DNA of 64,000 nucleotides from a virus. Its lineage: Duplodnaviria; Heunggongvirae; Uroviricota; Caudoviricetes. The notes beneath the pieces are model-generated. The model saw only the letters and a list, made by a program, of their open reading frames with translations. It had not been told where the DNA came from and did not search any database. Position numbers and translations under genes: made by a program. Below, one piece after another: positions 2 to 31,118 of the stretch (its first letter is position 1; the number at the start of each line of letters is the position of its first letter). The stretch spans positions 38,590 through 102,589 of IMG/VR virus record IMGVR_UViG_3300031857_000056; one strand, given 5' to 3'.

Positions 2-874
2 ACTACTAATACAAATGCTAATTTAGCACTAGAAAGTGCAAATTTTACAATTGAGGGTTGGTTTTATTTTATTGACGGCACGGCTAATTCACTTCGTCCT
101 GTTTTAGGTAATTATTCGTTATTTTCGTCTAATAGTATTTATTTTGGAAAACACACATCTTATGGTGGTAAAATGGCACTTTGGATTGGTAACTATTCTG
201 CCAACAATGCATTGTTGGCAGATCCAACTGATCTTACAAATAATCAATGGATACATTTTGCTATAGTGAGAAATGGTTCAAATTGGACAATGTATAGAGA
301 TGGGGTAAGTGTTACAACTGTTACGTATAGTGGTGTAACAAGTACAACAAATTTCTTTTATATAGGAGCTAGTGGTGATGGATATTATTTTAATGGTTAT
401 ATAGATGAATTAAGAATTACCAAAGGTATTGCAAGATATACCAGTAATTTTACGCCATCTACCACGCAATTTTTAGATAGTGCGGGTGATGCAAATAGTA
501 GTGTAGTGGTTAATAGTACTGCAACAGGATTTGCAATAGGAACAGGTGGTATAAATGGCGCACAATTAGCAAAAGCTTGGGTCAACTTTAATGGAACAGG
601 TACTGTAGCTATAACAGATAGTTATAATGTAAGCAGCATAACAGATTTAGGAACAGGACAATACTTAGTTAATTTTAGTACCGCAAGGAGTAATGCTAAT
701 TATGTACATTTTATATCTATGCCTGGTAACAGTGATTCTCCCAGCAATTCTTTTACTACTAACACCGCTAATAATTCATATTCACAAACAACTACATATG
801 CGGTAGTAACTACTAGATTTAACGGATCTTTATATGATACTGGCGGAATCCATAGTATTGTATTTAGCAATTGA
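2..874 (+). CDS. LamG/ConA-like lectin-domain structural protein (5' partial; frame is open from window start)
   Basis: No stop from nt 2 in frame with the 173 ATG. 'FTIEGWFYF' LamG-type strand motif. Asn/Ser/Thr-rich fiber-like composition. Confidence 0.55.
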   Translation, partial: TTNTNANLALESANFTIEGWFYFIDGTANSLRPVLGNYSLFSSNSIYFGKHTSYGGKMALWIGNYSANNALLADPTDLTNNQWIHFAIVRNGSNWTMYRDGVSVTTVTYSGVTSTTNFFYIGASGDGYYFNGYIDELRITKGIARYTSNFTPSTTQFLDSAGDANSSVVVNSTATGFAIGTGGINGAQLAKAWVNFNGTGTVAITDSYNVSSITDLGTGQYLVNFSTARSNANYVHFISMPGNSDSPSNSFTTNTANNSYSQTTTYAVVTTRFNGSLYDTGGIHSIVFSN

Positions 875-2784: not shown

Positions 2785-3495
2785 ATGGGAATAGCCAGAG
2801 GTCCAAAAATTGTAACAAGCGGTTTATTATTAGCACTAGATGCGGCCGATAAAAACAGTTACGCTGGTAGCGGCACAGCTTGGCGAGATTTGAGTGGTAA
2901 TAGTAATAATGGCACATTGACAAATGGACCTACATTTAGTGCGGGTAATCAAGGAAGTATCGTTTTTGATGGCACAAATGATTACGTTGATACAGTTAAT
3001 ACCGGAACAACTTTTCAATTTGCAAATGTCACATTTACTGTGAGTTTATGGATAAAAACAAGCGCTACAAGTGGTGTTATTATTTCTAAAGGTGCAACTG
3101 CTTCTACGGCAGGTTGGCTGTTTCAATTTAACTCCGAAGGAACAGTTTCTGGTACTACAAAAGGTTCTGATGGTACTAATACTTATAACAGAGCAAGCAC
3201 AGCAACAGTCAATAATAATACTTGGAGAAATATAGTATCAGTATATACAACTAATACAACAACTCTTGCGAGTAATACAACATCAATATATATAGATGGT
3301 GTTTTAAGTAATGGTACAGGTACATTAGGCGGATTAGTATATGCGACAACTACAGATACTGTTCAAATAGGTAGAAGACCTTCCGGTGCTTATTGGTCCG
3401 GCTCTGTATCTAATTTATTGATATACAACAGAGCATTAACCGCAACAGAAATCTTACAAAACTATAACGCAACAAAAGGTAGATACGGACTATAA
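2785..3495 (+). CDS. LamG-domain protein, paralog 3
   Basis: Same motifs. Forms the third tandem copy. Confidence 0.65.
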   Translation: MGIARGPKIVTSGLLLALDAADKNSYAGSGTAWRDLSGNSNNGTLTNGPTFSAGNQGSIVFDGTNDYVDTVNTGTTFQFANVTFTVSLWIKTSATSGVIISKGATASTAGWLFQFNSEGTVSGTTKGSDGTNTYNRASTATVNNNTWRNIVSVYTTNTTTLASNTTSIYIDGVLSNGTGTLGGLVYATTTDTVQIGRRPSGAYWSGSVSNLLIYNRALTATEILQNYNATKGRYGL

Positions 3496-3812: not shown

Positions 3813-6263
3813 ATGATATTTAGAGCTACAAATTCATCGTCGTTTCTATTTAATCCTATCTACCCAATCTTTCTTACCAGAAAGTATTTGGGTACGCCTC
3901 TTTCATTAAATAGACGCAATCTCATTTTCAGAGTAAAAGTAGTAGAAAGCGCAAGTTTAAATCTTACTCTTAATTCAGCGCTTACCGAATTAAACACAGA
4001 ATCATCTACCAATAATATAACATTACGATCTGCTAATGTTATACCATTATATACCCCAGCTACATTATACAGTTCTCTTAATAGTGTTTCTATACCATCG
4101 TCAATTGGAGATAAAATTGATTATGCACAATCACTAAACAGTGTAACTTATACAAACGCAAATGTAGAATCTGTAACAATATCACCAGGCTTAAATAACA
4201 TAAGTTTAAAACTTGACGGTGATAAATCAGTAAATTCAATTAATCTTTCAAATGTTCAATTAATTGACCCAAGAATAAATATTGGTAATCAAAATATAGC
4301 ACTAAATAGTACCATATATGATACTCCAATATTAAACTCAAGTGCTATATACAATACATTAAATAATGTTGATCATTATAAAAATATAACTGATCAAACA
4401 ATAACTAATATAGCATTAAACGGTTCAAATTATTACACTGATATATTAGATAGTGGTAATACAAACATATCACTTAATAGTATTATCACTTATAAGCCTG
4501 ATATAGATAATTCAATAAACAGTATCAACTTACATAGCACATTACATTTGCCTGTTCAAGTTGATATGGGAAGTAATGTTGTGCAGTTGTTGGGATCATC
4601 TTATTATACAAACATATATGATACATCTCAAACCGCAGTATCTGTATTGGGATCACAATATTATGTAAACTACACAGATACGTCGCAAACCGCTGTATCT
4701 ACATTGGGATCACAGTATTATGTGGATTTCTACGATACGTCACAAACTGCAGTATCCACACTTGGATCACAATATTATGTTGACTTTTATGATGTATCGC
4801 AAATTGCAGAAACAGTACTGGGTTCACAATATTATGTAGATTTTTATGACTCATCACAAACCGCAGTATCCACACTTGGATCTCAATATTATGTAAATTT
4901 TTATGATGCGTCGCAAAATGCGGAAACTGTACTGGGTTCACAATATTATGTAAATTTTTACAATGCATCACAAACCGCTGTATCAACGGTGGGATCTCAA
5001 TATTATGTAAACTATACTGACGCATCCGATACTTCATTAGCACTAAATTCTTCTGGGTATTATGTAAATTATACGGATACATCAATTAATACAAGTAATA
5101 TAGTTGGTTTAAACAATTATGTAGATTTTTCTGATATATCCAATAATTCTATAGCTTTAAATAAATTAAGCAACTATGTTAATTTTGATGATGTATCTAT
5201 TTCAAATAATGTTTTGGGTAGTCTAAATCATAATCCTGTACAACTTGAAATTGTAAATGAAAATCTAACTATTTCTAGTCTCAATTATAAATCAATTAAT
5301 TTAGAAATTGTAAATGAAAATCTTACCATCAATAGTTTAAATTACAATTATTATGCTACTGATTTAATTGCTCAAAATAATGGTTTAAATAGTTTAATAT
5401 TAAAATCTGCTGATTATGATGACAGTGTTTCATTTGCAACATCTTTAAATTCTGTAACATTTGTACCAAACGAATACATAAAATCGGTTATCCAAAATAG
5501 TAGTGTATTGACCAATTTGAGTATGTTTCAAGGACCATATTCAAATAATATGACATACAATGTAGCATTAACTAATTTGAATTATTCGTTGAGTGAATAT
5601 AATAAATTGGTTAATACCACAGATAATTTGCGTAAATTGGTATATGAAGATGAATCCAACAATAAGTTGGTAAATCAATCATCTAACTTAAGATCGTTAA
5701 GATATGATGATACTAGATTTGAAGTAAATGTTAGTGAAAACAATAGATTATCATCGTTAAGAAATTTACTTGACTCAAATAATAGCACAAAAATATCTGG
5801 GTCATTTAAAAATATATCATATAATGCAGCATTAATTGATACTGTATTGGGTTCAAATACTACATTTAGACCATACAGTACCGCTTCAGCTGTTACATTT
5901 AATAGTGATTCACCCACAAATTATGTAAAACAAATCAATATTATTTACTATATGAACGGGGGTAATTTAACTCAAAGTATAGTAAATTTTGGTGAAGATT
6001 TAGCATTTCAAGTAATAGGTAATTCTAATCCTGGCACATATGTAACCAACTTTGATTATAATACACCCTACAGAGCCAGTTTTATTACAAAAAATTGGCC
6101 AGTATATCAATATGATACAGGTTCCAACGCAAACCTACCTGTTATACTCAATTGTTCCAATGTTGAACGTAAAATAAGCGCAACATCAGGTATATGGGTA
6201 GAAGCATCATTGGAAGACGGTGGAACATTGGTGGATGAATACGGATTTAGTATAGATATATAA
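3813..6263 (+). CDS. Ser/Asn/Thr-rich fiber-like structural protein with 20-aa tandem repeats
   Basis: 816 aa. Nine repeats of 'LGSQYYV(N/D)(Y/F)(T/Y)D(T/A)SQTAVST'. Asn-rich beta-rich remainder. Confidence 0.6.
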   Translation: MIFRATNSSSFLFNPIYPIFLTRKYLGTPLSLNRRNLIFRVKVVESASLNLTLNSALTELNTESSTNNITLRSANVIPLYTPATLYSSLNSVSIPSSIGDKIDYAQSLNSVTYTNANVESVTISPGLNNISLKLDGDKSVNSINLSNVQLIDPRINIGNQNIALNSTIYDTPILNSSAIYNTLNNVDHYKNITDQTITNIALNGSNYYTDILDSGNTNISLNSIITYKPDIDNSINSINLHSTLHLPVQVDMGSNVVQLLGSSYYTNIYDTSQTAVSVLGSQYYVNYTDTSQTAVSTLGSQYYVDFYDTSQTAVSTLGSQYYVDFYDVSQIAETVLGSQYYVDFYDSSQTAVSTLGSQYYVNFYDASQNAETVLGSQYYVNFYNASQTAVSTVGSQYYVNYTDASDTSLALNSSGYYVNYTDTSINTSNIVGLNNYVDFSDISNNSIALNKLSNYVNFDDVSISNNVLGSLNHNPVQLEIVNENLTISSLNYKSINLEIVNENLTINSLNYNYYATDLIAQNNGLNSLILKSADYDDSVSFATSLNSVTFVPNEYIKSVIQNSSVLTNLSMFQGPYSNNMTYNVALTNLNYSLSEYNKLVNTTDNLRKLVYEDESNNKLVNQSSNLRSLRYDDTRFEVNVSENNRLSSLRNLLDSNNSTKISGSFKNISYNAALIDTVLGSNTTFRPYSTASAVTFNSDSPTNYVKQINIIYYMNGGNLTQSIVNFGEDLAFQVIGNSNPGTYVTNFDYNTPYRASFITKNWPVYQYDTGSNANLPVILNCSNVERKISATSGIWVEASLEDGGTLVDEYGFSIDI
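4590..5040. repeat. 60-nt tandem repeat, about 9 copies, inside the fiber gene
   Basis: Near-identical 60-nt units 'ttgggatcacaatattatgt..cgcaaaccgctgtatc'. Explains the antisense ORF 4699..5085. Confidence 0.8.
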
Positions 6264-6287: not shown

Positions 6288-9200
6288 ATGAGAATAACAG
6301 ATCTACCACAATTATTTACAGCGTCTATCAATGATTTGCTGTACGTAATTGATGTAAACGATACAAGTAGCTTTTTTTCTGGGTCAAGCAAAAGAATAGA
6401 CATTAGTACTCTTTTTTCTTCACCTAGCATAACCGCTAGTTTTGCTAAAAAAGCATTAAGTGCTAGTTATGCTAAAACAGCCAGTTACGCACTAGTATCA
6501 AGATCATCCAGTTACGCATTTAATGCTACAACCGCAAGTTATGCATTAAATGCTGGTACCAAAATATACACAGGCAGTGTATATCCAATAACCGCAAGTT
6601 GGGCTATCAATGGTGGCACCAAATTGTATACCGGCAGTACATACCCAATAACTTCCAGTTGGGCACTCAATGGTGGCACAAAGTTATATACTTCCAGTAC
6701 ATATCCAATAACCGCAAGTTGGGCCATAACCGCGAGTTACGCTTTAAATCAAACCACCAGCGGTACATCAGGCACTTCTGGCACCGCAGGTAGTAGCGGA
6801 ACAAGTGGTACCAGTGGCACAAGTGGTACCAGTGGCACCAGTGGAACAAATGGCACCAGTGGATCAAGTGGGTCAAGTGGATCAAGTGGTACATCTGCAA
6901 CCGCTGGTACTAGTGGTTTAACAGGATCAAGTGGTACGAGTGGTACAAGCGGCAGTGATGGTACCAGTGGGTCAAGCGGTAGCAGTGGCAGCAGTGGTAC
7001 CAGCGGTATAGAAGGTGGTAGATTGTTTACCGTAACAAGTTCTGGATTTAATTATAATATCGCTGGTTACACTGGATCATTTCCTACCATTACGGTGGTA
7101 AGGGGACAATTATATTACTTTGATGTAAGCGGTGTATCTGCGTCACATCCATTTGCCTTGAGATTGTCAAGTGGCAATACTAGTGCTGTACCTGGCACCA
7201 CAAATAATGATCCTGTAAATGGATTGGCAAATACAAACACTTTAATAATTTACAGAGTACCTGAAGACGCTCCTTCTAGTATAGTTTACCAATGTGTTGT
7301 ACATTCAGGTATGATTGGAACTATAAATATAGTAAACCAATATGGTACATCTGGTACATCTGGTACTGCGGGAACAGCCGGTAGTAGCGGAAGTAGTGGC
7401 ACAAGTGGTAGTGATGGTACCAGTGGGTCTAGCGGTAGTAGTGGAGAATCTGGTACAAGTGGTAGCAGTGGAAGTAGTGGAAGTAGTGGTAGTAGCGGAT
7501 CTAGCGGTAGTAGCGGTAGTAGTGGAAGTAGTGGTACAAGCGGCAGTGATGGTACCAGTGGATCCAGCGGTAGCAGTGGCAGTAGTGGAACAAGTGGTAT
7601 AGAAGGTGGTGGTTTATTTACAGTAACTAGTTCTGGTTTTAATTATAACATTGCTGGTTATTCTGGTACTTTTCCTACTATTACGGTAGTGAGAGGTCAG
7701 TTGTATTATTTTAATGTAAGCGGCGTATCTGCATCACATCCATTTGCATTGAGATTATCAAGTGGTAATACTGCAACAGTACCAGGAACAACAAACAATG
7801 ATCCTGTAAATGGATTGGCAAATACAAACACTTTAATAATTTACAGAGTACCCAATGATGCGCCTAATAGTATAGTTTATCAGTGCGTTATACATTCAGG
7901 TATGATTGGAACTATAAACATAGTTGATCAATATGGTACATCCGGTACATCTGGTACTACGGGAACAGCTGGATCAAGTGGTAGCAGTGGTAGCAGTGGT
8001 AGCAGTGGTGAAAATGGTACAAGTGGTACTAGCGGTAGTACTGGTACAAGTGGTAGCAGTGGATCCAGTGGAAGTAGTGGAACAAGTGGTACGTCCGCAA
8101 CTGCTGGTACAAGTGGTGAAACTTTTGGTACCAGTGGTACTAGCGGCAGTACAGGAACAAGTGGTACTAGTGGAGAATCTGGTACAAGTGGTAGCAGTGG
8201 ATCCAGTGGAAGTAGTGGAACAAGCGGCACCAATGGTACATCTGCAACTGCTGGTACAAGCGGTGAAACTTTTGGTACCAGTGGTACCAGTGGATTGACG
8301 GGAACTAGCGGTACATCTGGTAGTACCGGAACAAGTGGTAGCAGTGGTAGCAGTGGAGAATCAGGTACCAGTGGAAGTAGTGGACAATCTGGTACTAGTG
8401 GCAGTAGTGGTAATACTGGTAGCAGCGGTAGTAGTGGTGTGAGTGGTACTACGTTGTATACTGGTAGCACATATCCTATAACGGCTAGTAGAGCTGTTAC
8501 TGCAAGTTATGCGTTGAATGCTACTGGTGGTGGAAGTTCTTTGTACACTGGTAGTACTTATCCGATAACTGCAAGTTGGGCACTGTATGTAGTGAATGGA
8601 ACTAGTGGTACTGCTTCATTGAATTTAACTAACATTACACGTAGTGGCAATGGAAGTGGTTCTGTTTATAATTTAAATAACAATACATTTACCGGCACAA
8701 ATTCTTTGGTATTTCTGGGTGGTATTACTTTAAATAATAATATTGATTATACACTGAGTTCTGGAATATTAACATTTACTTCCCCACCACTATTAAATGA
8801 AGAAATACACGTTGTTAAATTTACAGGTGGTGGTGCAAATGGTACTAGTGGTACAAGTGGCATAGTTGGTATTGCCAATGCGCAAACATTCACAAGCAAT
8901 GGTATTGCTACACAATACGCTCTTACACAAAGTGTAGTACGTAGTTATGACATTATAGTTGCTATAAATGGTGTGGTTCAAAATTACAGTTCCAGTTATA
9001 CTGTAACTGGATCTACACTTACATTAGCTTCTGCACCACCATTAAATTCTAAAGTGGATGTCAGATTTTTAGGTAGCGCAGCTGGCGGTGGAGGAGGCGG
9101 TAGCGGCACAAACGGTACAAGTGGATCAAGTGGATCAAGTGGTACTAGCGGCACAAGTGGGTCAAGTGGAGAATCAGGTACAAGTGGATCAAGTGGAGAA

Positions 9201-9911
9201 TCAGGTACAAGTGGGTCAAGTGGGTCAAGTGGAGAATCAGGTACAAGTGGGTCAAGTGGTACTAGCGGCACAAGTGGATCAAGTGGAGAATCAGGTACAA
9301 GTGGGTCAAGTGGTACTAGCGGCACAAGTGGGTCAAGTGGAGAATCAGGTACAAGTGGATCAAGTGGGTCAAGTATATCTTTGCAAACTGGCAGTTTATA
9401 TCCCATAACGGCAAGTAGAGCTATTACTGCAAGTTACGCATTGAACGCAACTGGTGGTGGAAGTTCTTTGTATACTGGTAGTACTTATCCCATAACAGCG
9501 AGTAGAGCTATTACTGCAAGTTACGCATTGAATGCTTCTGGTGGAGGTGGTAGTACATTACAAACTGGTAGCACTTATCCCATTACTAGTAGTTATGCTA
9601 ATTTTGCAATAAATATTGCTGGTAGTGTTACTACATTGGTGGGTACTGATATAAATTGGAACAATCCAACTTATGAAAAGAATATTTCAGTTGCAGAGAC
9701 ATATACATTTTCAAATGTTACAACTGGCAGTTCAATTGTGGTTATATTGAATAATACAGGCAGCAACAGTATATTATCTACATTTCCAAATAGTGTAAAA
9801 TGGGCCAATTCATTGCCACCCACAAATATACTATCAAATGCAACTTCAATTTATACATTTGTAAGAACCAAATTATATGTTCTGGGTAGTTCTACTGAAA
9901 ACTATCAATAA
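6288..9911 (+). CDS. collagen-like (G-X-Y) fiber protein with two embedded cupredoxin-like domains and YPITAS repeats
   Basis: 1207 aa. Long GTS/GSS/GES triplet runs. N-terminal 'ITDLPQLFTAS..DLLYVIDVND' fiber-attachment-like motif. Repeated 'LYTGSTYPITASWA' units. Two ~109-aa globular inserts. Confidence 0.7.
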   Translation: MRITDLPQLFTASINDLLYVIDVNDTSSFFSGSSKRIDISTLFSSPSITASFAKKALSASYAKTASYALVSRSSSYAFNATTASYALNAGTKIYTGSVYPITASWAINGGTKLYTGSTYPITSSWALNGGTKLYTSSTYPITASWAITASYALNQTTSGTSGTSGTAGSSGTSGTSGTSGTSGTSGTNGTSGSSGSSGSSGTSATAGTSGLTGSSGTSGTSGSDGTSGSSGSSGSSGTSGIEGGRLFTVTSSGFNYNIAGYTGSFPTITVVRGQLYYFDVSGVSASHPFALRLSSGNTSAVPGTTNNDPVNGLANTNTLIIYRVPEDAPSSIVYQCVVHSGMIGTINIVNQYGTSGTSGTAGTAGSSGSSGTSGSDGTSGSSGSSGESGTSGSSGSSGSSGSSGSSGSSGSSGSSGTSGSDGTSGSSGSSGSSGTSGIEGGGLFTVTSSGFNYNIAGYSGTFPTITVVRGQLYYFNVSGVSASHPFALRLSSGNTATVPGTTNNDPVNGLANTNTLIIYRVPNDAPNSIVYQCVIHSGMIGTINIVDQYGTSGTSGTTGTAGSSGSSGSSGSSGENGTSGTSGSTGTSGSSGSSGSSGTSGTSATAGTSGETFGTSGTSGSTGTSGTSGESGTSGSSGSSGSSGTSGTNGTSATAGTSGETFGTSGTSGLTGTSGTSGSTGTSGSSGSSGESGTSGSSGQSGTSGSSGNTGSSGSSGVSGTTLYTGSTYPITASRAVTASYALNATGGGSSLYTGSTYPITASWALYVVNGTSGTASLNLTNITRSGNGSGSVYNLNNNTFTGTNSLVFLGGITLNNNIDYTLSSGILTFTSPPLLNEEIHVVKFTGGGANGTSGTSGIVGIANAQTFTSNGIATQYALTQSVVRSYDIIVAINGVVQNYSSSYTVTGSTLTLASAPPLNSKVDVRFLGSAAGGGGGGSGTNGTSGSSGSSGTSGTSGSSGESGTSGSSGESGTSGSSGSSGESGTSGSSGTSGTSGSSGESGTSGSSGTSGTSGSSGESGTSGSSGSSISLQTGSLYPITASRAITASYALNATGGGSSLYTGSTYPITASRAITASYALNASGGGGSTLQTGSTYPITSSYANFAINIAGSVTTLVGTDINWNNPTYEKNISVAETYTFSNVTTGSSIVVILNNTGSNSILSTFPNSVKWANSLPPTNILSNATSIYTFVRTKLYVLGSSTENYQ
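7014..7340 (+). other. cupredoxin (plastocyanin/amicyanin)-like domain, copy 1
   Basis: 'FPTITVVRGQLYYFDVSG' strand, then His in 'SASHPFALR', then 49 aa later 'YQCVVHSGM' (Cys-x2-His-x2-Met). This is the full type-1 Cu ligand pattern. Confidence 0.55.
7605..7930 (+). other. cupredoxin-like domain, copy 2
   Basis: Near-identical duplicate: 'SASHPFALR' ... 'YQCVIHSGM'. Confidence 0.55.
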
Positions 9912-9919
9912 TATGTTGT

Positions 9920-11287
9920 ATGCCTATATCAAGAATAACCAGAAATAGTCTAGTATACGCCAATAACAAAACTCAAAACATTGAGTCTAGACTATTTGGC
10001 TTACCAACACAATCAGGCTCACTTTATTTGCAAAATAGTCAATCACTATATTTGCAAGATTTAAGCGGTACATACGTACTAGAATATCCTTCCGCAATCG
10101 CATTATCCTATAACAGTTACTACAATAAATTCATAGCCGATAGGTCCACCCAAAACTCATTACTAACAACACGTTATTATACCAGTGAAAGTAAAGCTAC
10201 TGGCGATTTTGGCTATATACTGTACCAAAATAGTAGATCAATGTATACTCAAGCTACCCCAGACATTTATTTGCTTGAATATAGCGCTACAAGCAGTTTG
10301 TTAACTGATACAGGATCAAGTGCTTTATCGCTCAAAACACGTTACTTTGTTAGTGAAAGTAAAGCTACTGGCGATTTTGGCTATATATTGTATCAAAATA
10401 GCAGATCAATGTATACTCAAGCTACTCCAGACATTTATTTGCTTGAATATAACGCTACAAGCAGTTTGTTAACTGATACAGGATCAAGTGCTTTATCGCT
10501 CAAAACACGTTACTTTGTTAGTGAAAGTAAAGGAAGTGGTAACTTTGGTTATATACTGTATCAAAATAGCAGATCCGTATATCTACAAGATCCAAATAGT
10601 ATACTTTTATTATATGATCCAGATATTATACCAGTTGGCACCAGTGCAAGTTTACAAGAAACTGGATCAAATGTTTTATCTTTTAGAACTCGTTATTATA
10701 TCAGTGAAAGTAAAGCGTCAAGTATATATCTAGGTTATCAAAATGATAGAAGCATCTATTTAGAAAATACTGCAAATCCATTTGTCATAGAATATAACGG
10801 TACAAGCAGTTTGTTAACTGATACCGGATCAAATGCTTTATCTTTTAGAACTCGTTATTATATCAGTGAAAGTAAAGCGTCAAGTATCTTCTTGGGTTAT
10901 CAAAATGATAGAAGCATCTATTTAGAAAATACCGCAAATCCATTTGTCATAGAATATAGTGGTACAAGTAGTTTGTTAACTGATACCGGATCAAGTGCTT
11001 TATCGTTCAGAACCAAATACTATATCAGTGAAAGTAAAGCGTCAAGTATCTTCTTGGGTTATCAAAATGATAGAGCTGTATATTTGGAGAATACTGATAA
11101 TCCATTTGTTATAGAATATAGTACTACGAGCAGTTTGTTAACTGATAGCGGGTCAATTAATCAGTTATTATTAACAAAGTATTATCTCAGTGAAAGTATA
11201 GCGTCAGGTAGTTTATATATTGGATATCAAAATGATAGAAGTATCTATTTAGAGAATTTAACCGATGTATTTGTTTTGGAGCCATAA
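9920..11287 (+). CDS. structural protein built from seven ~56-aa tandem repeats
   Basis: Repeat 'TRYY.SESKA.G.FGYILYQN.RS.Y...........EY.ATSSLLTDTGS.ALS.K'. Confidence 0.6.
   Translation: MPISRITRNSLVYANNKTQNIESRLFGLPTQSGSLYLQNSQSLYLQDLSGTYVLEYPSAIALSYNSYYNKFIADRSTQNSLLTTRYYTSESKATGDFGYILYQNSRSMYTQATPDIYLLEYSATSSLLTDTGSSALSLKTRYFVSESKATGDFGYILYQNSRSMYTQATPDIYLLEYNATSSLLTDTGSSALSLKTRYFVSESKGSGNFGYILYQNSRSVYLQDPNSILLLYDPDIIPVGTSASLQETGSNVLSFRTRYYISESKASSIYLGYQNDRSIYLENTANPFVIEYNGTSSLLTDTGSNALSFRTRYYISESKASSIFLGYQNDRSIYLENTANPFVIEYSGTSSLLTDTGSSALSFRTKYYISESKASSIFLGYQNDRAVYLENTDNPFVIEYSTTSSLLTDSGSINQLLLTKYYLSESIASGSLYIGYQNDRSIYLENLTDVFVLEP
10178..11280. repeat. 168-nt tandem repeat, about 7 copies; first two copies nearly identical
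   Basis: 10178-10345 and 10346-10513 are almost identical at DNA level. Later copies are diverged. Confidence 0.75.
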
Positions 11288-12736: not shown

Positions 12737-13915
12737 ATGCCACAACCAATATCACAATTAGCAGACTATACAACAATAACAGGATCCGCATTTGTTCCTA
12801 TTGTTGATGTTAATGAAACAGTATCATCAAAAAACAAAAAGATCAGTGTAGATGATTTGAGAAAAACTTTCTTTAAAAGTGGAGTTCTTCTTTCATCTTC
12901 TTTCACAGAACATACGCCGGGTTTTTATTACTTTGGTGACAATCGTGATGGTCGTCTCAATTTAACAGGTTCAATTGCCACTGTTAGAACTTTTGTAAGC
13001 AGATCGTTCGCAAGTACACAAGATGGCGCACCTGTCGTTAAAAACTTTAGTTCGTTGTTCATTTCCAGAAGTGTGGTGGTGAGTCCAACCAATAGATGTA
13101 GAGGATTGTTGATATTTGTGGATGGTGATGCAACCATCAGTGGTAGCATAAGTATGACTGCTAGAGGAGCGAGGTTTACAGGAAGCGACGCTTCCTTCAC
13201 AACAATAAATCCGCCATATTTGGGTGATTACTGGAGCACGCAGTTGTTTCCGTCTGCGAGTTATTTGAGCAGAGTATTTGCGGTTGGAGCGGCTGGTGGT
13301 ACGGCTGGCCCCGCTCCATCTAGCGTTGGTGGCGTTGGTGTCACTGGTATACTGGGAAGAAGTGGAGGTGGAGGAGGCGGCGGTGGACAAGCAGCCGCGG
13401 GTGGAGCGGGATCAACAGGCACATCTTTTAGTGGTGGATCTGGTGGTGGAGGAGGTGGGCCATCTCCAGGAGCAAATGGCTTTGCATTTGGTGGTCAAGG
13501 TGGTCCAACGCTTGGTAGCGGCGGCGCCGGATCAGGCAATCCAGGTGGAATAACGCCAGCTCAGCCGCCCAGTAGTCCACTCCCAGTCTCAGCACCAAGT
13601 GGTACTGGTGGATTGTTAATATTAATAGTGAAAGGTAATTTAAGAATTGGACCAAATGGATCAATTACGGCTAATGGAATCAGTGGTGGTAATGGACTTG
13701 CTGGTTTTGGAACTGCTGGTGGCGGTGGAAGTGGAGGTGGAGTGTTATATATTTATTATGGTGGGTCTTTAACAAATAATGGCACTGTAACTGCTAATGG
13801 TGGGTCAGGTGGTTTAACTGGTACACCCTCGCCAGCTCTTAATCAAGGCGGAGCAGGAGGAGCTGGAACTGCGATAATATCAAAATTAAACGTTGCATTT
13901 CCAGTAGCAAACTAA
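12737..13915 (+). CDS. glycine-rich tail-fiber-like protein, paralog 1
   Basis: N-terminal 'ISQLADYTTITGSAFVPIVDVNE' motif, 'NRCRGLLIFVDGDATISG' motif, GGGGGG runs, C-terminal 'GGLLILIVKGNLRIGPNGSITANG...VLYIYYGG.LTNNGTVTANGG'. Confidence 0.6.
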   Translation: MPQPISQLADYTTITGSAFVPIVDVNETVSSKNKKISVDDLRKTFFKSGVLLSSSFTEHTPGFYYFGDNRDGRLNLTGSIATVRTFVSRSFASTQDGAPVVKNFSSLFISRSVVVSPTNRCRGLLIFVDGDATISGSISMTARGARFTGSDASFTTINPPYLGDYWSTQLFPSASYLSRVFAVGAAGGTAGPAPSSVGGVGVTGILGRSGGGGGGGGQAAAGGAGSTGTSFSGGSGGGGGGPSPGANGFAFGGQGGPTLGSGGAGSGNPGGITPAQPPSSPLPVSAPSGTGGLLILIVKGNLRIGPNGSITANGISGGNGLAGFGTAGGGGSGGGVLYIYYGGSLTNNGTVTANGGSGGLTGTPSPALNQGGAGGAGTAIISKLNVAFPVAN

Positions 13916-13927
13916 ATAATTATTTAT

Positions 13928-15052
13928 ATGCCTACAAGAATATCAGATTTACCCGAATATACAACAATAACATCATCAGCATTTGTGCCTATTGTTGATG
14001 TTAATGAATTGGTAGCTTCAAAAAATAAAAAAATAAGAATTGACGATTTAAGAAAATATTTTTTCACAGGCACAACCACCAGCAGTTCTTTCACAGAACA
14101 TACCCCAGGCCTTTATTACTTTGGCGATAACAGCGACGGACCTCTTAACTTAACAGGCTCTATCGCCACCGTTAGAACTTTTGTAAGCAGATCCTTCGCA
14201 AGCACTCAAGATGGCGCGCCTGTCGTTAAGAACTTCAGTTCATTGTTCATTTCCAGAAGCGTAGTAGTGAGTCCAACAAATAGATGTAGAGGAATGTTGA
14301 TATTTGTGGATGGTGATGCAACTATTAGTGGTAGTCTACGAATGAACGGCAGAGGTGCTTCCGCGGTTGGAGCTGATGCGTCTTTTACAACAATAAATCC
14401 GCCATATTTGGGTGATTACTGGAGCACGCAATTGTTTCCTTCGTCGAGTTATTTGAGCAGAGTATTTGCTGTAGGCGCAGCAGGTTCAGGCTATGGAACT
14501 GATGGGGTAACTGGTGTAAATGGAAGATCTGGTGGCGGAGGAGGTGGGTCTAGTTATGGTGCACCGACAGCAGGTTCAGGCGCAACCGGCACATCGTTTA
14601 GTGGTGGTTCTGGTGGAGGTGGATCCCAGGTTAACGTCATCGCCGGAGGAAGTGCGAGTGGAAATGGTGGCGCAGGGGGAAATGGCGCAACCGGCCCCGG
14701 CGGTACCGGCGGCGGTGGAGCTGGAAATCCAGGCGGCACTCCAAATGGAGGTGTAGGAACAGGTGGATTATTAATATTAATTGTACGAGGTAATTTAAGA
14801 ATTGGGCCAAATGGCAGTATAACATCAAATGGTAGCAATGGCGGAAATGCAAGTAGTCCAACGCAGGGCGGAGGAGGAGGTGGAAGTGGCGGTGGGGTGT
14901 TATATGTATATTATGGCGGTACACTAACAAACAATGGCACTGTAACCGCATCTGGAGGCACCCGTGGCACGGGTGGAAACGTTGCTGGAAACGGTGGAGC
15001 TGGAACTGCTATATTATCAAAATTAAACGTTGCATTTCCAGCAGCAAACTAA
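13928..15052 (+). CDS. glycine-rich tail-fiber-like protein, paralog 2
   Basis: About 70% identical to paralog 1 over the N-terminal 200 aa, with the same C-terminal motifs. Confidence 0.6.
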   Translation: MPTRISDLPEYTTITSSAFVPIVDVNELVASKNKKIRIDDLRKYFFTGTTTSSSFTEHTPGLYYFGDNSDGPLNLTGSIATVRTFVSRSFASTQDGAPVVKNFSSLFISRSVVVSPTNRCRGMLIFVDGDATISGSLRMNGRGASAVGADASFTTINPPYLGDYWSTQLFPSSSYLSRVFAVGAAGSGYGTDGVTGVNGRSGGGGGGSSYGAPTAGSGATGTSFSGGSGGGGSQVNVIAGGSASGNGGAGGNGATGPGGTGGGGAGNPGGTPNGGVGTGGLLILIVRGNLRIGPNGSITSNGSNGGNASSPTQGGGGGGSGGGVLYVYYGGTLTNNGTVTASGGTRGTGGNVAGNGGAGTAILSKLNVAFPAAN

Positions 15053-15065
15053 TATTTAATAATAT

Positions 15066-16100
15066 ATGGCAAATAAACGTATAACAGATTTAACCGAAGC
15101 AACTTTTGTAAGTGCGAGTAATTTTTATGTTGTGTATGATCCTACAGCTACACAAGATCAAAATGCTGATGGTTATACTGATTTTAATAAAAAAGTAAAA
15201 CTAAAAAATATTTGTACCCAAGTAAGTCAATCAGCCATCACTTGGTTTGGTACAGGCGCAAATGGTGCTTTAAATACAACAGGTAGTGTTACTTTTACCA
15301 CTACAAATGATCAAGAAGTATTTGTGAGAAATTATACATCTCTCACAGTAAATGCTGGTCATACAATGACTGTAAGCAACAGATGTAGAGGATTGTTGAT
15401 ATATGTTGGGGGAGATTGTACTATAAATGGTACAGTAACAATGTCAGGCAAAGGAGCCAACTCGGTTGGAACAGCTGCTCATTATGTATATCAATCTAAA
15501 AATTACTATGGCAACTTTATTCCCCAATATCAATTTAACAGCGTAAAATTATATGGATCTGGTAGTGCCGGTGGACCCGCAAATACTGCTGGTAGATCCG
15601 CAGGCGAAGGTTATACAGGTGGTGGAGGCGGTGGAGGTGGAACTGGTGGTGCTGGTGCAGCAGGCACCAGTTGGAGTGGTGGATCAGGTGGAGGTGGTGG
15701 ACCATCTGCAACTGCAGGCACTATAAATGGTGGTGCTGGTGGTAATGGTACAGCTGCGAATACTGGTGGTGGTGCTGGTAATGGTGGTGGCAGTGCTGGT
15801 CCAGGTGGTATAGCTGGTGGTACTGGTACAGGTGGTTTGATTATTTTTGTGGTAAAAGGTACATTTACATTGGGAAATACAGGTGCAATAACTGCAAATG
15901 GTGTTGCGGGTGGAAATGGTAGTGCAGGAGGAGGAGGAGGTAGTGGAGGTGGAAGAATAGTTGTATTATACAATCAAAATTATATAAATAATGGTGGTAC
16001 TATTACTGCAAATGGTGGAGCTGGTGGAGGAACTGCTCCAACTGCTGGTGGCAGTGGGGGAGCCGGTAGCATAACAATAAGAGAAATAGGAATTTGGTAA
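15066..16100 (+). CDS. glycine-rich tail-fiber-like protein, paralog 3
   Basis: 'ITDLTEAT' N-terminus, 'NRCRGLLIYVGGDCTINGT', Gly-rich C-terminus. Confidence 0.55.
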   Translation: MANKRITDLTEATFVSASNFYVVYDPTATQDQNADGYTDFNKKVKLKNICTQVSQSAITWFGTGANGALNTTGSVTFTTTNDQEVFVRNYTSLTVNAGHTMTVSNRCRGLLIYVGGDCTINGTVTMSGKGANSVGTAAHYVYQSKNYYGNFIPQYQFNSVKLYGSGSAGGPANTAGRSAGEGYTGGGGGGGGTGGAGAAGTSWSGGSGGGGGPSATAGTINGGAGGNGTAANTGGGAGNGGGSAGPGGIAGGTGTGGLIIFVVKGTFTLGNTGAITANGVAGGNGSAGGGGGSGGGRIVVLYNQNYINNGGTITANGGAGGGTAPTAGGSGGAGSITIREIGIW

Positions 16101-16117
16101 AATATTTATAAAGTTAT

Positions 16118-17359
16118 ATGGCAATACCATCACAAGCAATATCTCAAATGACTACCTTGGTAGGTAGTAATCGTAACGACAATTGTTTATTTACATTGTA
16201 TAATGCATTAATATCGTCCAGTGTCAATCAAAATTTAAAAGCAAGAATAAGTACCCACGAACAATTTTATAGCAACAACAATACCGTCATAAATCAAGGT
16301 ACTTATAATAATTACTTTGGAACAGGCAAAGATGGTAGTGTAACCATAAGTAGCAGTGCGCAAATAAGTTCATCCACATCTCCAGCTGGATTAAATAATA
16401 TTAGTCGTGAATTTGGCGACCCAGTTATAAAAAACTTTCAAAATTTAACCATCAACAGTGGTGTATTGTTCAGCCCATTAAGAGCTTGTAGAGGAATGAT
16501 AATATATTGTACTGGCAATTTAACAGTAAACGGCACTTTGAGTATGACTGGTAAAGGTGGAGGCGTTGGTTCTAAAGTCGCGTCTCCTATTGGATTTGCT
16601 ACAAGCACCGATTCAAGATATGATTTGGTGGATGCTACATTATATTTTAACAATTTTTCATCAAGCACTGCAGGTGGAAGAGGAATACCTACACATTGGA
16701 ATTGGGCGCCTAGTGGTAGTATTTGGTTTAATAATTATAAGATTAGAGTGCCATTGAGTGGGAGTGCTGCTGGAGGAGGACCAAATAATGGTGGTAGTGC
16801 GGGAATATTTTGTTGTGGAGGTGGAGGTGGGGGTGGTCAATCAAACCCTGGCGCGGTAAGGGCAGGAGGATCCGGTGGTAGCGGAACTATATTTCTAGGA
16901 GGAGGGGGAGGAGGAGGAGGATCATACGGCGGCGGCGCCGGCACCAACGGCATATTTGAAGCTGGTGGAATTGGCGGATTTGGGCCTAATCCAGGATTAG
17001 GCCCAAATGGTTCTGGCGGAGGTGGAGCTGGAACACCTGCTGGACCTGGCTCCGGAGGCGCTGGTAATACAGGCGTTGGTGGATTAATTATATTAATAGT
17101 ACGTGGTAATATTACAATAAACGGCACAGTTTCTAGTGGTGGCGCAAATGGAGGTAATGGAACTACTGGAGGTGCTGGAGCTGCTGGCGGTGGCGGTGGA
17201 AGTGGCGGTGGTAGGATAATAATTATTTACGGCGGTACATATAGTAATGTTGGTACCATTGTGGTTAATGGTGGCTCCGGCGGCGCCGGTGGCCCCGGCG
17301 CACTCACTGGTGGTGCTGGTGGTGCGGGTTCTATAACTATAAGAAGGGTAAATGTTTAA
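16118..17359 (+). CDS. glycine-rich tail-fiber-like protein, paralog 4
   Basis: 'RACRGMIIYCTGNLTVNGT', Gly runs, 'GGLIILIVRGNITINGT'. Confidence 0.55.
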   Translation: MAIPSQAISQMTTLVGSNRNDNCLFTLYNALISSSVNQNLKARISTHEQFYSNNNTVINQGTYNNYFGTGKDGSVTISSSAQISSSTSPAGLNNISREFGDPVIKNFQNLTINSGVLFSPLRACRGMIIYCTGNLTVNGTLSMTGKGGGVGSKVASPIGFATSTDSRYDLVDATLYFNNFSSSTAGGRGIPTHWNWAPSGSIWFNNYKIRVPLSGSAAGGGPNNGGSAGIFCCGGGGGGGQSNPGAVRAGGSGGSGTIFLGGGGGGGGSYGGGAGTNGIFEAGGIGGFGPNPGLGPNGSGGGGAGTPAGPGSGGAGNTGVGGLIILIVRGNITINGTVSSGGANGGNGTTGGAGAAGGGGGSGGGRIIIIYGGTYSNVGTIVVNGGSGGAGGPGALTGGAGGAGSITIRRVNV

Positions 17360-17365
17360 AATTTT

Positions 17366-18589
17366 ATGGCTACACAAATATCAAGTTTAACAACACTAGT
17401 TAATGGCGTAAACAGTTATGATTGTTTTTTGCCATTGGTTGATCCAACATTAGCATTAGATTCTCGTAATGTTAAAATTAGAATAAGTACCCACAATGAA
17501 ATGTTCAGCAACAACTTTGCTGTAGCTAGTTTGAGCAGTTATGCAAACTATTTTGGAACAGGCAAAGATGGTAGCTTAACCATAAGCAGCAGTGCTCAAG
17601 TAAGCGCTTCATTGAATAATATTAGTCGTGAATTTGGCGACCCAGTTATAAAAAACTTTCAAAATTTAACCATCGGCAGTGGTATATTATTTAGTCCACT
17701 AAGAGCTTGTAGAGGTATGATAATATATTGCACAGGCGATTTAACGGTGAATGGTACCATAAGTATGACTGGTAAAGGTGGAGGCGTTGGTTCTAAAGTC
17801 GCGTCTCCTATTGGATTTGCTACAAGCACCGATTCAAGATATGATTTGGTGGATGGCACATTATATTTCAATAATTTTTCATCAAGTACAGCGGGTGGTT
17901 ATGGAATACCTACGCATTGGAATTGGGCGCCTAGTGGAAGTGTTTGGTTTAGGAATTATAAGATACGAGTGCCATTGAGCGGAAGTGTTGACGGTGGCAA
18001 TGGTGCATCGACCGCTGCGGCTTCGGGTAATGCGGGATCAGCTGGTATATTTAGTTGTGGTGGCGGCGGTGGTGGTGGTTCCGGAGAATCGCAGTATGGT
18101 ACTTTTGGATCAGGAGCTTCTGGAGGCAGAGGAACTATATTTTCTGGTGGTGGCGGTGGAGGAGGCGGCGGCGGTGGATGTTGTGGTGGCAATGTACCTG
18201 GTACATCTGGTATTCTTGAAAGAGGAGGAGCAGGGGGAGCTTCTCCTAACGGCCCAGCGGGTGGAGGAGCGGGAACTACAACTACTGGTGGAAACGGTAC
18301 ATTAGGTGTTGGGGGATTATTAATATTAATTGTACGTGGAAATATAATAATTAATGGAACTATTAGTTCAAATGGAGCTAGTGGTGGAAACGGAGTACGT
18401 ATTAGTAAAGGATCTGGTGGAGGAGGTGGAAGTGGCGGTGGTCGAATAATTATAACTTATGGCGGTACATACACTAATGCGGGTTCCGTTGTTGCAAATG
18501 GTGGATCAGGTGGTTCTGCCAGCTCTGGCGGTGGTCCAGGTGCGTCTGGTGGTGCTGGATCTATAACTACAAGAAAGATACATATATGA
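17366..18589 (+). CDS. glycine-rich tail-fiber-like protein, paralog 5
   Basis: Close paralog of 16118..17359, including a shared 200-nt near-identical block. Confidence 0.55.
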   Translation: MATQISSLTTLVNGVNSYDCFLPLVDPTLALDSRNVKIRISTHNEMFSNNFAVASLSSYANYFGTGKDGSLTISSSAQVSASLNNISREFGDPVIKNFQNLTIGSGILFSPLRACRGMIIYCTGDLTVNGTISMTGKGGGVGSKVASPIGFATSTDSRYDLVDGTLYFNNFSSSTAGGYGIPTHWNWAPSGSVWFRNYKIRVPLSGSVDGGNGASTAAASGNAGSAGIFSCGGGGGGGSGESQYGTFGSGASGGRGTIFSGGGGGGGGGGGCCGGNVPGTSGILERGGAGGASPNGPAGGGAGTTTTGGNGTLGVGGLLILIVRGNIIINGTISSNGASGGNGVRISKGSGGGGGSGGGRIIITYGGTYTNAGSVVANGGSGGSASSGGGPGASGGAGSITTRKIHI

Positions 18590-23463: not shown

Positions 23464-23651
23464 TTACTTACATTCTCTGGTCCATTTGATGTATGAATAC
23501 CCAAATACTTTACCTTGGTCAAATCCATAGGCATCTTGATGCGTTTCCAATCCCATAGGGCTGGTAGATCACTATCATCAACAGCTTCCCATTCAATTTC
23601 CAATACAATTTTAGCAGATTTAGTTTTATTATTCATAACTTTCACGGTCAA
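23448..23651 (-). CDS. hypothetical protein
   Basis: ORF of 67 aa, overlap-coupled to neighbours. Confidence 0.3.
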   Translation of the reverse strand: MTVKVMNNKTKSAKIVLEIEWEAVDDSDLPALWDWKRIKMPMDLTKVKYLGIHTSNGPENVSNWMGN

Positions 23652-31102: not shown

Positions 31103-31118
31103 ATTTGTCCTTTCTAAA

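What the first reader, a model, noticed from the sequence alone, without database searches (positions are those of the whole stretch)
7014..7930. Two tandem cupredoxin (plastocyanin/amicyanin)-like domains with a complete type-1 copper ligand set, embedded in a collagen-like phage fiber
Inside the 1207-aa G-X-Y collagen-like protein there are two ~109-aa globular inserts. Each has the cupredoxin N-terminal strand pattern 'FPTITVVRGQLYYF[DN]VSG'. Each has a His in 'SASHPFALR' and, 49 residues later, 'YQC[VI][VI]HSGM' (Cys-x2-His-x2-Met). That is exactly the H/C/H/M spacing of amicyanin and plastocyanin blue-copper sites. A redox-metal-binding fold grafted twice into a structural collagen fiber is something I cannot place in any described phage fiber. 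It could be a Cu-binding adhesin, a redox-active virion appendage, or an exapted fold.
Basis: partly seen in the sequence, partly recalled or inferred. Interest (0 to 1): 0.8.

Follow-up and report, generated by a model that had tools for sequence, protein, structure and literature searches.

The report
Blue-copper-type domains in a phage fibre
A long collagen-like tail fibre of an uncultured phage carries two real cupredoxin (blue-copper-protein) domains with all four copper ligands intact, and the same unannotated domain turns out to be common in the fibres and baseplate protein gp9 of marine cyanophages, so phage particles may routinely carry copper sites.

Summary
ORF 6288..9911 (+) encodes a 1207-aa collagen-like fibre. 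It has two 109-aa inserts (aa 243-351 and 440-548), each with His, then 49 residues on, Cys-x2-His-x2-Met.

- An AlphaFold model built on 48 diverse homologues has pLDDT 96.9.
- Profile searches of PDB sequences are led by copper nitrite reductases, multicopper oxidases, plastocyanins, amicyanins and pseudoazurins.
- The four residues align with amicyanin H53/C92/H95/M98.

Selection supports a working site.
- 244 of 276 family copies keep all four ligands, and losses are correlated.
- The two copies diverged long ago (dS 0.76) under strong purifying selection (dN/dS 0.076).
- The ligand residues are the fibre's only Cys and only internal Met.

The architecture is not unique. The domain occurs in 310 cyanomyovirus records: the gp9 C-terminus, and the P-SSM2 orf028 collagen fibre with the same layout. 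It also occurs in secreted bacterial proteins. No curated model or searchable paper names it.

Copper binding itself is untested. My best reading is metal-stapled knobs on a trimeric fibre, with a redox or sensor role as the exciting minority option.

The parts
6288..9911 (+). Gene for the 1207-aa collagen-like fibre protein that carries the two cupredoxin domains
   Evidence: ORF list. Pfam Collagen E 7.5e-50. PHROG tail-fibre families, e.g. phrog_5073 at 5e-62. The exact protein is found on 9 metagenomic contigs.
6288..6422 (+). N-terminal motif 'RITDLPQ...YVIDVND...KRIDISTLF', the probable virion-attachment module. It is shared with three of the five Gly-rich paralogues downstream (12737, 13928, 15066).
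   Evidence: Seen directly in the translations. The attachment function is inferred.
6762..7022 (+). Collagen G-X-Y run (aa 159-245) upstream of domain 1
   Evidence: Regex census; Pfam Collagen.
7014..7340 (+). Cupredoxin domain 1 (aa 243-351). Ligand codons: H287 7146-7148, C336 7293-7295, H339 7302-7304, M342 7311-7313.
7344..7613 (+). Collagen G-X-Y run (aa 353-442) between the two domains
   Evidence: Part of the ~197-aa duplicated unit.
7605..7931 (+). Cupredoxin domain 2 (aa 440-548). Ligand codons: H484 7737-7739, C533 7884-7886, H536 7893-7895, M539 7902-7904.
   Evidence: HMM domain score 118.8 bits, E 4e-36 against the family profile. 91% identical to domain 1. dN/dS 0.076.
7935..8453 (+). 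Collagen G-X-Y runs (aa 550-722)
   Evidence: tandem repeat of period 147.
9087..9374 (+). Collagen G-X-Y run (aa 934-1029)
9555..9908 (+). Non-collagen C-terminal region (aa ~1090-1207), the presumed distal or receptor-binding end
   Evidence: Translation only; no family match. The function is inferred from its position.

Best explanation
Each insert is a genuine single-domain cupredoxin of the amicyanin-like short-loop type. It keeps a complete type-1 metal site: His, Cys, His and an axial Met.

The host protein is a homotrimeric collagen-like tail or baseplate fibre. Each insert position should therefore form a knob of three cupredoxin domains on the stalk, and the stalk carries two such knobs.

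The chain enters and leaves a cupredoxin at the end opposite the metal site. The metal site and the surface around its exposed His should therefore point away from the fibre axis.

I propose that the site is occupied by a metal, most probably copper. The copper could be acquired in the infected cell or after lysis. Its main role would be to staple the C-terminal ligand loop to the body of the sandwich. That would give rigid, long-lived nodes that register and stiffen the triple helix and present an outward-facing surface to the host envelope.

What is shown: the fold, the homology, the ligand alignment, purifying selection on the ligands, and recurrence in trimeric virion proteins.

What is inferred: trimer knob geometry, outward orientation, metal identity and occupancy, and the stabilising rather than catalytic role.
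For: Fold
- AF2 on a 48-sequence alignment gives pLDDT 96.9 and pTM 0.89.
- Foldseek hits are dominated by laccases, with AcoP and plastocyanin.

Homology
- The top PDB-sequence hits of the family profile are NirK, multicopper oxidases and plastocyanin, and amicyanins, pseudoazurins and azurin fill most of the rest of the list (32 sequences at E up to 10). Best is the NirK chain 6hbe at E 1e-5.
- hhalign places H/C/H/M on amicyanin H53/C92/H95/M98 without gaps in the loop.

Selection
- 244 of 276 near-full copies in 226 proteins have H-C-H-M.
- 6 have H-C-H-F, an axial substitution known from high-potential laccase T1 sites (my own knowledge).
- 10 copies have lost all four ligands. That is far more than independent loss at about 7% per site would give.
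- The two copies here have dS 0.76 and dN/dS 0.076.
- The ligand residues are the only Cys, the only internal Met and 4 of the 5 His in 1207 residues.

Trimeric virion context
- The same domain forms the C-terminus of cyanophage gp9 (phrog_677 E 3.7e-20; P-SSM4 gp9).
- It sits between collagen runs in P-SSM2 orf028.
- It occurs in proximal tail fibres and virion structural proteins.
- 40 sampled copies are flanked by G-X-Y on both sides.

Metal ions in trimeric phage fibres have precedent: Fe in T4 gp37 and Zn in gp12 (my own knowledge).
Against: - No metal binding was measured, and AF2 does not model metals.
- I could not read model coordinates, so the convergence of the four side chains was not measured.
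- The residue after the first His is a near-invariant Pro. Classical cupredoxins have a conserved Asn there, so the second coordination sphere differs.
- Virion proteins fold in the cytoplasm, where free copper is scarce. Classical cupredoxins are loaded outside the cytoplasm. The cellular relatives found here do carry signal peptides.
- Zn or no metal could occupy the site.
- Some copies that lost every ligand sit beside intact copies in one protein, e.g. P0010 and P0036. The fold can therefore serve without the site.
- No curated cupredoxin model reaches threshold on the window domains.
Confidence: 0.55

Rival explanations
1. Redox-active or copper- or redox-sensing virion appendage. The type-1 copper centres exchange electrons with a host-surface or environmental partner, or change state with ambient redox or copper. 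This would gate adsorption or baseplate triggering. The position at the C-terminus of gp9, the T4 fibre socket and trigger, would suit such a role.
For: - The complete T1 ligand set is conserved as a unit.
- The closest solved sequence relatives are tethered electron-transfer cupredoxin domains of NirK and MCO enzymes (6hbe, 9cck).
- The domain is present in gp9 of cyanomyoviruses.
- Met-to-Phe variants suggest tuning of potential.
- Light-dependent adsorption of some cyanophages is known (my own knowledge).
Against: - No partner redox centre, haem or second copper site is encoded in the fibre. Only the four ligands are invariant.
- No electron donor or acceptor is evident outside the cell.
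- Ligand-free copies coexist with intact ones.
- No literature support was found.
Confidence: 0.12
2. Host-binding adhesin module. The cupredoxin sandwich is used like the Ig-like, FN3 or lectin domains that decorate phage fibres. It would bind envelope glycans or proteins weakly and reversibly. The metal site would be part of the binding surface or irrelevant to it.
For: - It is located on fibres and baseplate periphery proteins.
- Neighbouring genes encode LamG/concanavalin-like lectin-fold proteins.
- Copy number varies from 1 to 7 per protein, as for decoration domains.
- Secreted bacterial homologues exist.
Against: - Adhesin surfaces usually diversify quickly. Here the two copies are under very strong purifying selection (dN/dS 0.076).
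- The most conserved positions are the metal ligands, not a variable surface.
- The domains sit mid-stalk, not at the distal tip.
Confidence: 0.15
3. Exapted fold without metal. It would be a purely structural beta-sandwich spacer or trimerisation node. The H/C/H/M residues would be retained for packing or by recent descent from a copper protein.
For: - About 12% of copies have lost one or more ligands, and 10 have lost all of them, yet they persist in fibres.
- Assembly in the cytoplasm disfavours copper loading (established knowledge).
- Pro replaces the conserved Asn after His1.
Against: - The four ligands are the only invariant columns apart from one Tyr, across sequences down to 26% identity.
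- Loss is all-or-none rather than gradual.
- Cys, Met and His are otherwise almost absent from the 1207-aa protein.
- dS of 0.76 between copies shows long retention.
Confidence: 0.15
4. Chance motif or assembly artefact: a duplicated segment or misassembled repeat.
For: The gene is highly repetitive. Repeats are prone to misassembly.
Against: - The identical 1207-aa protein is on 9 independent contigs from JGI and ENA assemblies.
- The two copies differ at 51 of 327 nucleotides, mostly synonymous.
- Family and fold statistics are strong.
Confidence: 0.01

Closest known systems
Amicyanin, plastocyanin and pseudoazurin (single-domain type-1 blue copper proteins; Pfam PF00127)
   Same: - An eight-stranded Greek-key sandwich of about 100 residues.
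- His upstream, then Cys-x2-His-x2-Met in the last loop, identical to the amicyanin loop.
- 'Y-x-C-x-x-H-x-x-M-x-G-x-[IV]' aligns directly.
   Different: - No signal peptide.
- Embedded in a collagen fibre rather than a soluble periplasmic or lumenal carrier.
- His1 is followed by Pro, not Asn.
- The His-to-Cys spacing is 49.
- An extra N-terminal hairpin is present.
- PF00127 does not reach threshold on the window domains.
- No known redox partner.
Tethered C-terminal cupredoxin domains of three-domain copper nitrite reductases and multicopper oxidases (PDB 6hbe, 6tfd, 9cck)
- A cupredoxin used as an appended module of a homotrimeric protein.
   Different: In those enzymes the domain feeds electrons to catalytic copper centres in the same assembly. 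The fibre has no catalytic copper ligands or other cofactor motifs.
Cyanomyovirus gp9 baseplate-wedge tail-fibre connector (phrog_677) and P-SSM2 orf028 collagen-like tail fibre
   Same: - The same domain family: phrog_677 C-terminal 95 positions at E 3.7e-20.
- P-SSM4 gp9 ends in '...GGHPFRIQ...YYQCTLHAAMQGTINVVS'.
- P-SSM2 orf028 has collagen, then the domain ('SGHPFYIK...YYICQYHSAMTGTISI'), then collagen.
- 310 phage records carry the domain, all named Synechococcus/Prochlorococcus phage or cyanophage except two 'Marine' records.
   Different: - Only 37-43% identical.
- One copy per protein there, two here.
- The window phage is not a known cyanophage: its best conserved-gene matches are about 40-45%.
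- Those proteins are annotated only as connector, tail fibre or collagen-like. The 2005 genome paper mentions only the collagen repeats.
Metal sites in T4 fibres (Fe in the gp37 needle, Zn in gp12) and the 'Ferrojan horse' idea of metal-bearing phage tails (my own knowledge)
   Same: Metal ions bound by His in homotrimeric phage fibres, with a structural role and possible biogeochemical relevance.
   Different: In T4 the metals sit on the three-fold axis and are coordinated by residues from all three chains. Here each chain would carry its own complete mononuclear site in a globular redox-protein fold.
Pfam PF25489 'At5g54830-like domain'
   Same: 20 of 48 family members give hits, best E 7.3e-11. 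P-SSM2 orf028 and gp9 give weak hits.
   Different: The window domains give no hit at E up to 1. I could not establish the ligand content or function of that Pfam family.

Membership tests
Cupredoxin fold superfamily | Greek-key beta-sandwich of 7-8 strands, about 100 residues | tested here: met
Type-1 (blue) copper site | Ligands His (loop after strand 4) plus Cys-xn-His-xn-Met in the loop between the last two strands | tested here: met
   H45/C94/H97/M100 of the domain align with amicyanin H53/C92/H95/M98 and with the plastocyanin ligands. Their positions relative to the predicted strands are canonical. All four columns are invariant in the 48-sequence alignment. 244 of 276 copies in the wider census are H-C-H-M.
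Type-1 (blue) copper site | The four side chains converge on one point in 3-D (about 2-3 A from the metal) | not testable with these tools
   Model coordinates are not exposed (one search shows no model file). Only the secondary-structure positions are available.
Type-1 (blue) copper site | Cu(II) binding with an intense ~600 nm band and small parallel hyperfine splitting in EPR | not testable with these tools
   This needs an experiment.
Type-1 (blue) copper site | Conserved Asn directly after the first His ligand (second-sphere hydrogen bond) | tested here: not met
   Pro is nearly invariant at that position ('HPF'). The expected Asn comes from my own knowledge of plastocyanin and azurin. 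Amicyanin 'PHNV' is visible.
Pfam PF00127 Copper-bind (plastocyanin/azurin family) | Score above the curated gathering threshold (21.2 bits) | tested here: not met
   The window domains give no hit at E up to 1. 7 of 48 relatives hit weakly, best E 8.6e-4. One example scores 15.8 bits.
Pfam PF25489 At5g54830-like domain | Score above the curated threshold (27 bits) | tested here: not met
   The window domains give no hit. 20 of 48 relatives match at E up to 1, best 7.3e-11.
Cyanophage gp9-C-terminal / fibre-insert domain family (phrog_677 C-terminus; unnamed) | Significant match to the C-terminal ~95 positions of phrog_677 and to the family profile | tested here: met
   E 3.7e-20 over positions 317-410 of 412. 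118.6 and 118.8 bits to the family HMM. tblastn hits in 310 phage records, all but two named as cyanophages. BFVD TM-score up to 0.8.
Collagen-like phage tail fibre | Long G-X-Y runs, phage structural gene neighbourhood, tail-fibre family matches | tested here: met
   Pfam Collagen E 7.5e-50. Several PHROG 'tail fiber protein' families at E down to 5e-62. Neighbours match baseplate-wedge, virion-structural and LamG families. Presence in the virion is not testable here.

The most novel reading that the evidence does not exclude
Tail fibres and the gp9 baseplate socket of many aquatic phages, including essentially all marine T4-like cyanophages, would carry bona fide type-1 copper centres that are functionally redox-active. 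That would be the first metalloredox cofactor on a virion appendage. It would act as a copper- or redox-dependent switch for adsorption or baseplate triggering, and it would make virions a distinct pool of organically bound copper in surface waters.
Probability: 0.12. Interest if true: 0.9.

Novelty: new variant of a known kind. Interest (0 to 1): 0.62.

Why it matters
Cupredoxins are textbook soluble electron carriers and enzyme modules of the periplasm and thylakoid lumen. None is described as part of a virus particle.

This work shows that a cupredoxin branch with an intact type-1 ligand set is built into trimeric virion fibres. It is missed by every curated model tested. It is present in 310 phage genome records, all but two of them named as cyanophages, including the baseplate protein gp9 of Prochlorococcus and Synechococcus phages sequenced since 2005.

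If the sites hold copper, four things follow:
- It gives a new principle for stabilising or regulating phage fibres.
- It suggests a copper requirement for producing infectious cyanophage.
- It suggests a copper analogue of the proposed iron-in-phage-tails pool in the ocean.
- It offers a directly testable handle on environment-dependent adsorption, through chelators, ligand mutants and ICP-MS of virions.

If the sites hold no copper, this is a clean case of a redox fold exapted as a structural bead. It would still correct the annotation of hundreds of phage proteins.

Tried and rejected
- Direct Pfam scan of the whole protein and of each insert found only Collagen.
- Single-sequence phmmer against PDB sequences gave no meaningful hit.
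- The first alignment (A1, 11 sequences) gave a poor model (pLDDT 58.5). Its profile was contaminated by the collagen tail of P0008. The PDB profile search then returned only collagens, and the count of 3442 representatives is inflated. I rebuilt a domain-only alignment (A2).
- blastn of the gene against phages found only collagen-repeat matches to a 735-kb uncultured phage.
- NCBIfam gave only collagen adhesin models and sub-threshold amicyanin and halocyanin hits.
- The afdb50 fold library was unavailable.
- Literature searches returned nothing relevant: cupredoxin with phage, collagen-like, cyanophage, tail fiber or virion; plastocyanin-like with cyanophage; and cyanophage with gp9 and cryo-EM. 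At5g54830 papers were uninformative.
- I considered that the two copies might be a recent duplication or a misassembly. I rejected this because dS is 0.76 and the protein is on 9 independent contigs.
- I considered extra inter-subunit type-2/type-3 copper sites as in NirK or laccases. I rejected this because no further His is conserved.
- I looked for more copies in all six frames of the window and found none.
- I could not identify the host. The best matches of ThyA and RNA ligase are only 40-45% identical, to jumbo phages and to various cyanophages.
Full report
**1. The observation**

ORF 6288..9911 on the + strand encodes a 1207-aa protein.
- 'FPTITVVRGQLYYF[DN]VSG' at aa 265-282 and 462-479.
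- 'SASHPFALR' at 284-292 and 481-489.
- 'YQC[VI][VI]HSGM' at 334-342 and 531-539.

The candidate ligands are H287/C336/H339/M342 and H484/C533/H536/M539. Their codons were checked. The two 109-aa inserts (aa 243-351 and 440-548) are 99/109 identical in protein but only 276/327 identical in DNA.

The flanks are bona fide collagen repeats. Pfam Collagen scores E 7.5e-50 in nine stretches, with G-X-Y runs at aa 159-245, 353-442, 550-722 and 934-1029. The duplicated unit is about 197 aa: a collagen run plus the globular domain.

One detail needs correcting. C-x2-H-x2-M is the amicyanin loop, whereas plastocyanin has C-x2-H-x4-M. The His-to-Cys distance of 49 is longer than in either protein (ligand numbering from my own knowledge).

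**2. Is it a cupredoxin?**

Direct scans were silent. Pfam on the inserts and single-sequence phmmer against PDB sequences found nothing useful. A word-indexed homologue search found only nine relatives, among them stand-alone proteins of about 133 aa. A model on that shallow alignment was poor, at pLDDT 58.5.

An exhaustive HMM search of 1.84 billion representatives opened up a large family. From its best 150 proteins I extracted 228 domain copies and aligned 48 diverse ones with the two window copies (alignment A2). With A2:
- **Model.** AlphaFold2 gives pLDDT 96.9 and pTM 0.89, with eight strands.
- **Foldseek.** It gives mostly laccases, with AcoP and plastocyanin.
- **PDB sequences.** The A2 profile's top hits are copper nitrite reductases, multicopper oxidases and plastocyanin, and further plastocyanins, amicyanins, pseudoazurins and azurin fill most of the rest of a 32-sequence list at E up to 10. 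The best hit is the NirK chain 6hbe (E 1e-5), whose C-terminal stretch 414-443 ('YICSIHPYMKG') gives the strongest local match.
- **hhalign.** Against amicyanin, domain H45/C94/H97/M100 falls on H53/C92/H95/M98 with no gap in the ligand loop.

In the model the first His lies just before strand 47-50. The Cys ends strand 89-94. The second His and the Met lie in the loop before the last strand, 101-107. This is the canonical placement. The second half of the test, convergence of the ligands in space, could not be measured because coordinates are not exposed.

**3. Is the site under selection?**

- In A2 the only invariant columns are H45, Y92, C94, H97 and M100. I had picked ligand-bearing sequences for A2, so I also made a wider census.
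- Among 276 near-full copies in 226 proteins, 244 are H-C-H-M. Six are H-C-H-F, and an axial Phe is known from high-potential laccase sites (my own knowledge).
- The copies with losses are spread 10/8/5/9 over 0/1/2/3 retained ligands.
- With about 7% loss per site, independent loss of all four would be expected in about 0.01 copies, not 10. The site therefore behaves as a unit that is either kept or abandoned.
- Some abandoned copies sit beside intact ones in the same protein, for example P0010 and P0036. The fold is therefore useful on its own.
- Within the window, the two copies have dS 0.76 and dN/dS 0.076. This is an old duplication with both copies strongly constrained.
- C336 and C533 are the only cysteines in 1207 residues. 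M342 and M539 are the only internal methionines. Four of the five histidines are the putative ligands.

**4. Context and distribution**

The window is phage DNA.
- Upstream ORFs match baseplate-wedge, virion-structural and tail-fibre PHROGs and the LamG fold.
- The fibre itself matches many PHROG tail-fibre families.
- Downstream lie further repeat-rich and Gly-rich paralogues, three of which share its N-terminal 'I[ST]DLP...' motif.
- The opposite strand encodes DNA ligase, two RNA ligases, ThyA and a glycosyltransferase.
- No isolate is close: ThyA and RNA ligase are 40-45% identical to jumbo phages and assorted cyanophages.
- The identical protein is on nine metagenomic contigs.

The domain is far from unique to this phage.
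- tblastn finds it in 310 phage records. All are Synechococcus or Prochlorococcus phages or 'Cyanophage', except two 'Marine' records. It lies under features annotated gp9 baseplate-wedge tail-fibre connector, tail fibre or virion structural protein.
- P-SSM4 gp9 has a T4_gp9_10_N domain at its N-terminus. It ends in '...GGHPFRIQ...YYQCTLHAAMQGTINVVS'.
- P-SSM2 orf028 is collagen, then the domain ('SGHPFYIK...YYICQYHSAMTGTISI'), then collagen, then a tip. This is the same architecture as in the window.
- The window domain matches the last 95 positions of phrog_677 at E 3.7e-20.
- In BFVD the best structural matches are cyanophage gp9, proximal tail fibres and virion structural proteins, with TM-score up to 0.8.
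- In my sample, 40 copies are flanked by G-X-Y on both sides.
- Short cellular relatives carry signal peptides or lipoboxes, for example P0196, P0204, P0241 and P0268. That is as expected for extracytoplasmic cupredoxins.
- Stand-alone 133-aa versions sit next to a holin-like gene on a small phage-like contig.

**5. What is known about it**

No curated model captures the window domains. PF00127 and PF25489 are hit only weakly and only by some relatives. NCBIfam gives sub-threshold amicyanin and halocyanin hits. One JGI record calls a relative 'plastocyanin'.

Full-text searches combining cupredoxin or plastocyanin-like with phage, cyanophage, tail fibre, virion or collagen-like found nothing relevant. 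The P-SSM2 genome paper describes orf028 only as collagen-like (PMC1079782). Within the library I could search, the cupredoxin identity of this fibre and gp9 domain is undescribed. I cannot exclude that superfamily-level database annotations already flag it.

**6. Mechanism**

Shown:
- A cupredoxin fold.
- Homology to type-1 copper proteins.
- A ligand set under selection as a unit.
- Recurrent placement in proteins that are homotrimers. Collagen triple helices and gp9 are trimers from established knowledge of T4.

Inferred:
- Each insert position forms a knob of three domains.
- In cupredoxins both chain termini lie at the end opposite the copper site. The site and the surface around the exposed second His therefore point away from the fibre axis.
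- The site is occupied, most probably by copper.
- The main benefit is mechanical. Metal binding ties the C-terminal loop to the sandwich and is known to stabilise cupredoxins strongly. That would give rigid, durable nodes that may also help to register the triple helix.

I put about 0.55 on this structural metal-knob reading. That combines about 0.95 for fold and homology with about 0.6 for a metal actually being bound.

Rivals:
- A redox or sensor role (0.12). It is attractive because of gp9's role as fibre socket and trigger in T4, but there is no partner centre.
- A host-binding adhesin (0.15). It is disfavoured by the very low dN/dS and by the mid-stalk position.
- A metal-free exapted bead (0.15). 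It is disfavoured by the pattern of ligand conservation.

The main uncertainties are the cytoplasmic folding of virion proteins, where copper is scarce, and the Pro that replaces the usual Asn after the first His.

**7. Verdict**

- The claim of uniqueness is not upheld, because the architecture has been in public cyanophage genomes since 2005.
- The claim of copper binding remains to be tested.

I rate it as a new variant of a known kind: a known fold and site in a context, virion fibres, that appears undescribed and is widespread. Interest is 0.62.

Noticed in passing
window 6288-9911 (aa 1-1207): Apart from the eight putative ligand residues, the 1207-aa fibre contains no Cys, no internal Met and only one other His (H841).
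   Followed up: yes
window 12737-18589 (+): Five consecutive paralogous Gly-rich proteins (392, 374, 344, 413 and 407 aa) have poly-Gly tracts and no Pfam or PHROG function. The first three share the N-terminal 'I[ST]DLP...VD.N...K[KR]I' motif with the cupredoxin fibre. This suggests a set of alternative appendages docking to one virion site.
   Followed up: partly
window 173-874, 1376-2059, 2071-2775, 2785-3495 (+): Four LamG/concanavalin-like (PF13385) proteins lie upstream. The last three are clear paralogues ending in 'LQNYNA[TV]K.R[FY]G', and they match baseplate-wedge and virion-structural PHROGs.
   Followed up: partly
window 3813-6263 (+) and 9920-11287 (+): Two more repeat proteins flank the fibre. 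One is an 816-aa protein with many ~17-aa 'SQTAVSTLGSQYYV[DN]FYD' repeats and no family match. The other is a 455-aa protein with ~60-aa 'TRYY[IV]SESKA...GYQNDRSIYLEN' repeats.
   Followed up: no
window 6530-6724 and 9378-9583: A 20-29-aa motif 'LYTGSTYPITASWA[LI]NGGTK' is repeated in tandem at the ends of the collagen segments (TRF periods 60 and 87). These are possibly beta-structured hinges between the collagen stretches.
   Followed up: no
window 18951-19625 (+): A sulfotransferase-like gene (PF00685, E 3e-6) sits near the end of the fibre module, after one small ORF (18586-18954). It might modify fibres or the host surface.
   Followed up: no
window 45268-46419 (-): The thymidylate synthase is 383 aa but covers a 266-position Pfam profile end to end. 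It therefore carries roughly 115 extra residues as insertions. Its best relatives are in jumbo phages at about 40% identity.
   Followed up: no
window 23629-24726, 30092-31144, 36217-37308 (-): One ATP-dependent DNA ligase and two different RNA ligases (a PHA02142/RNA_ligase type and a T4 Rnl1 type) lie within 14 kb. An SPFH/Band-7 protein is at 31527-32432.
   Followed up: no
L007 4364-4768 (JGI 3300017778 contig, 5962 bp): A stand-alone 134-aa version of the domain (P0004, 61% identical, ligands intact) lies immediately upstream of a holin-like gene (GTA_holin_3TM, weak) on a small phage-like contig. The domain therefore also exists as a free small phage protein.
   Followed up: partly
P0196, P0204, P0241, P0268: Bacterial MAG relatives (labelled Paceibacterota, Bdellovibrionales and Verrucomicrobia) carry signal peptides or a lipobox. 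Several have a conserved C-terminal extension '...NVFIR[IL]RAQ'. P0268 and the P0058 repeats have the axial Met replaced ('HGFGG', 'HLFGG').
   Followed up: no
BFVD hits, (ranks 30-50): 'Beta-sandwich proteins' of metagenomic Marseillevirus and Pithovirus genomes also match the model (TM-score 0.5-0.7, 13-20% identity). Cupredoxin-like sandwiches may therefore also occur in giant viruses. I did not check them for ligands.
   Followed up: no
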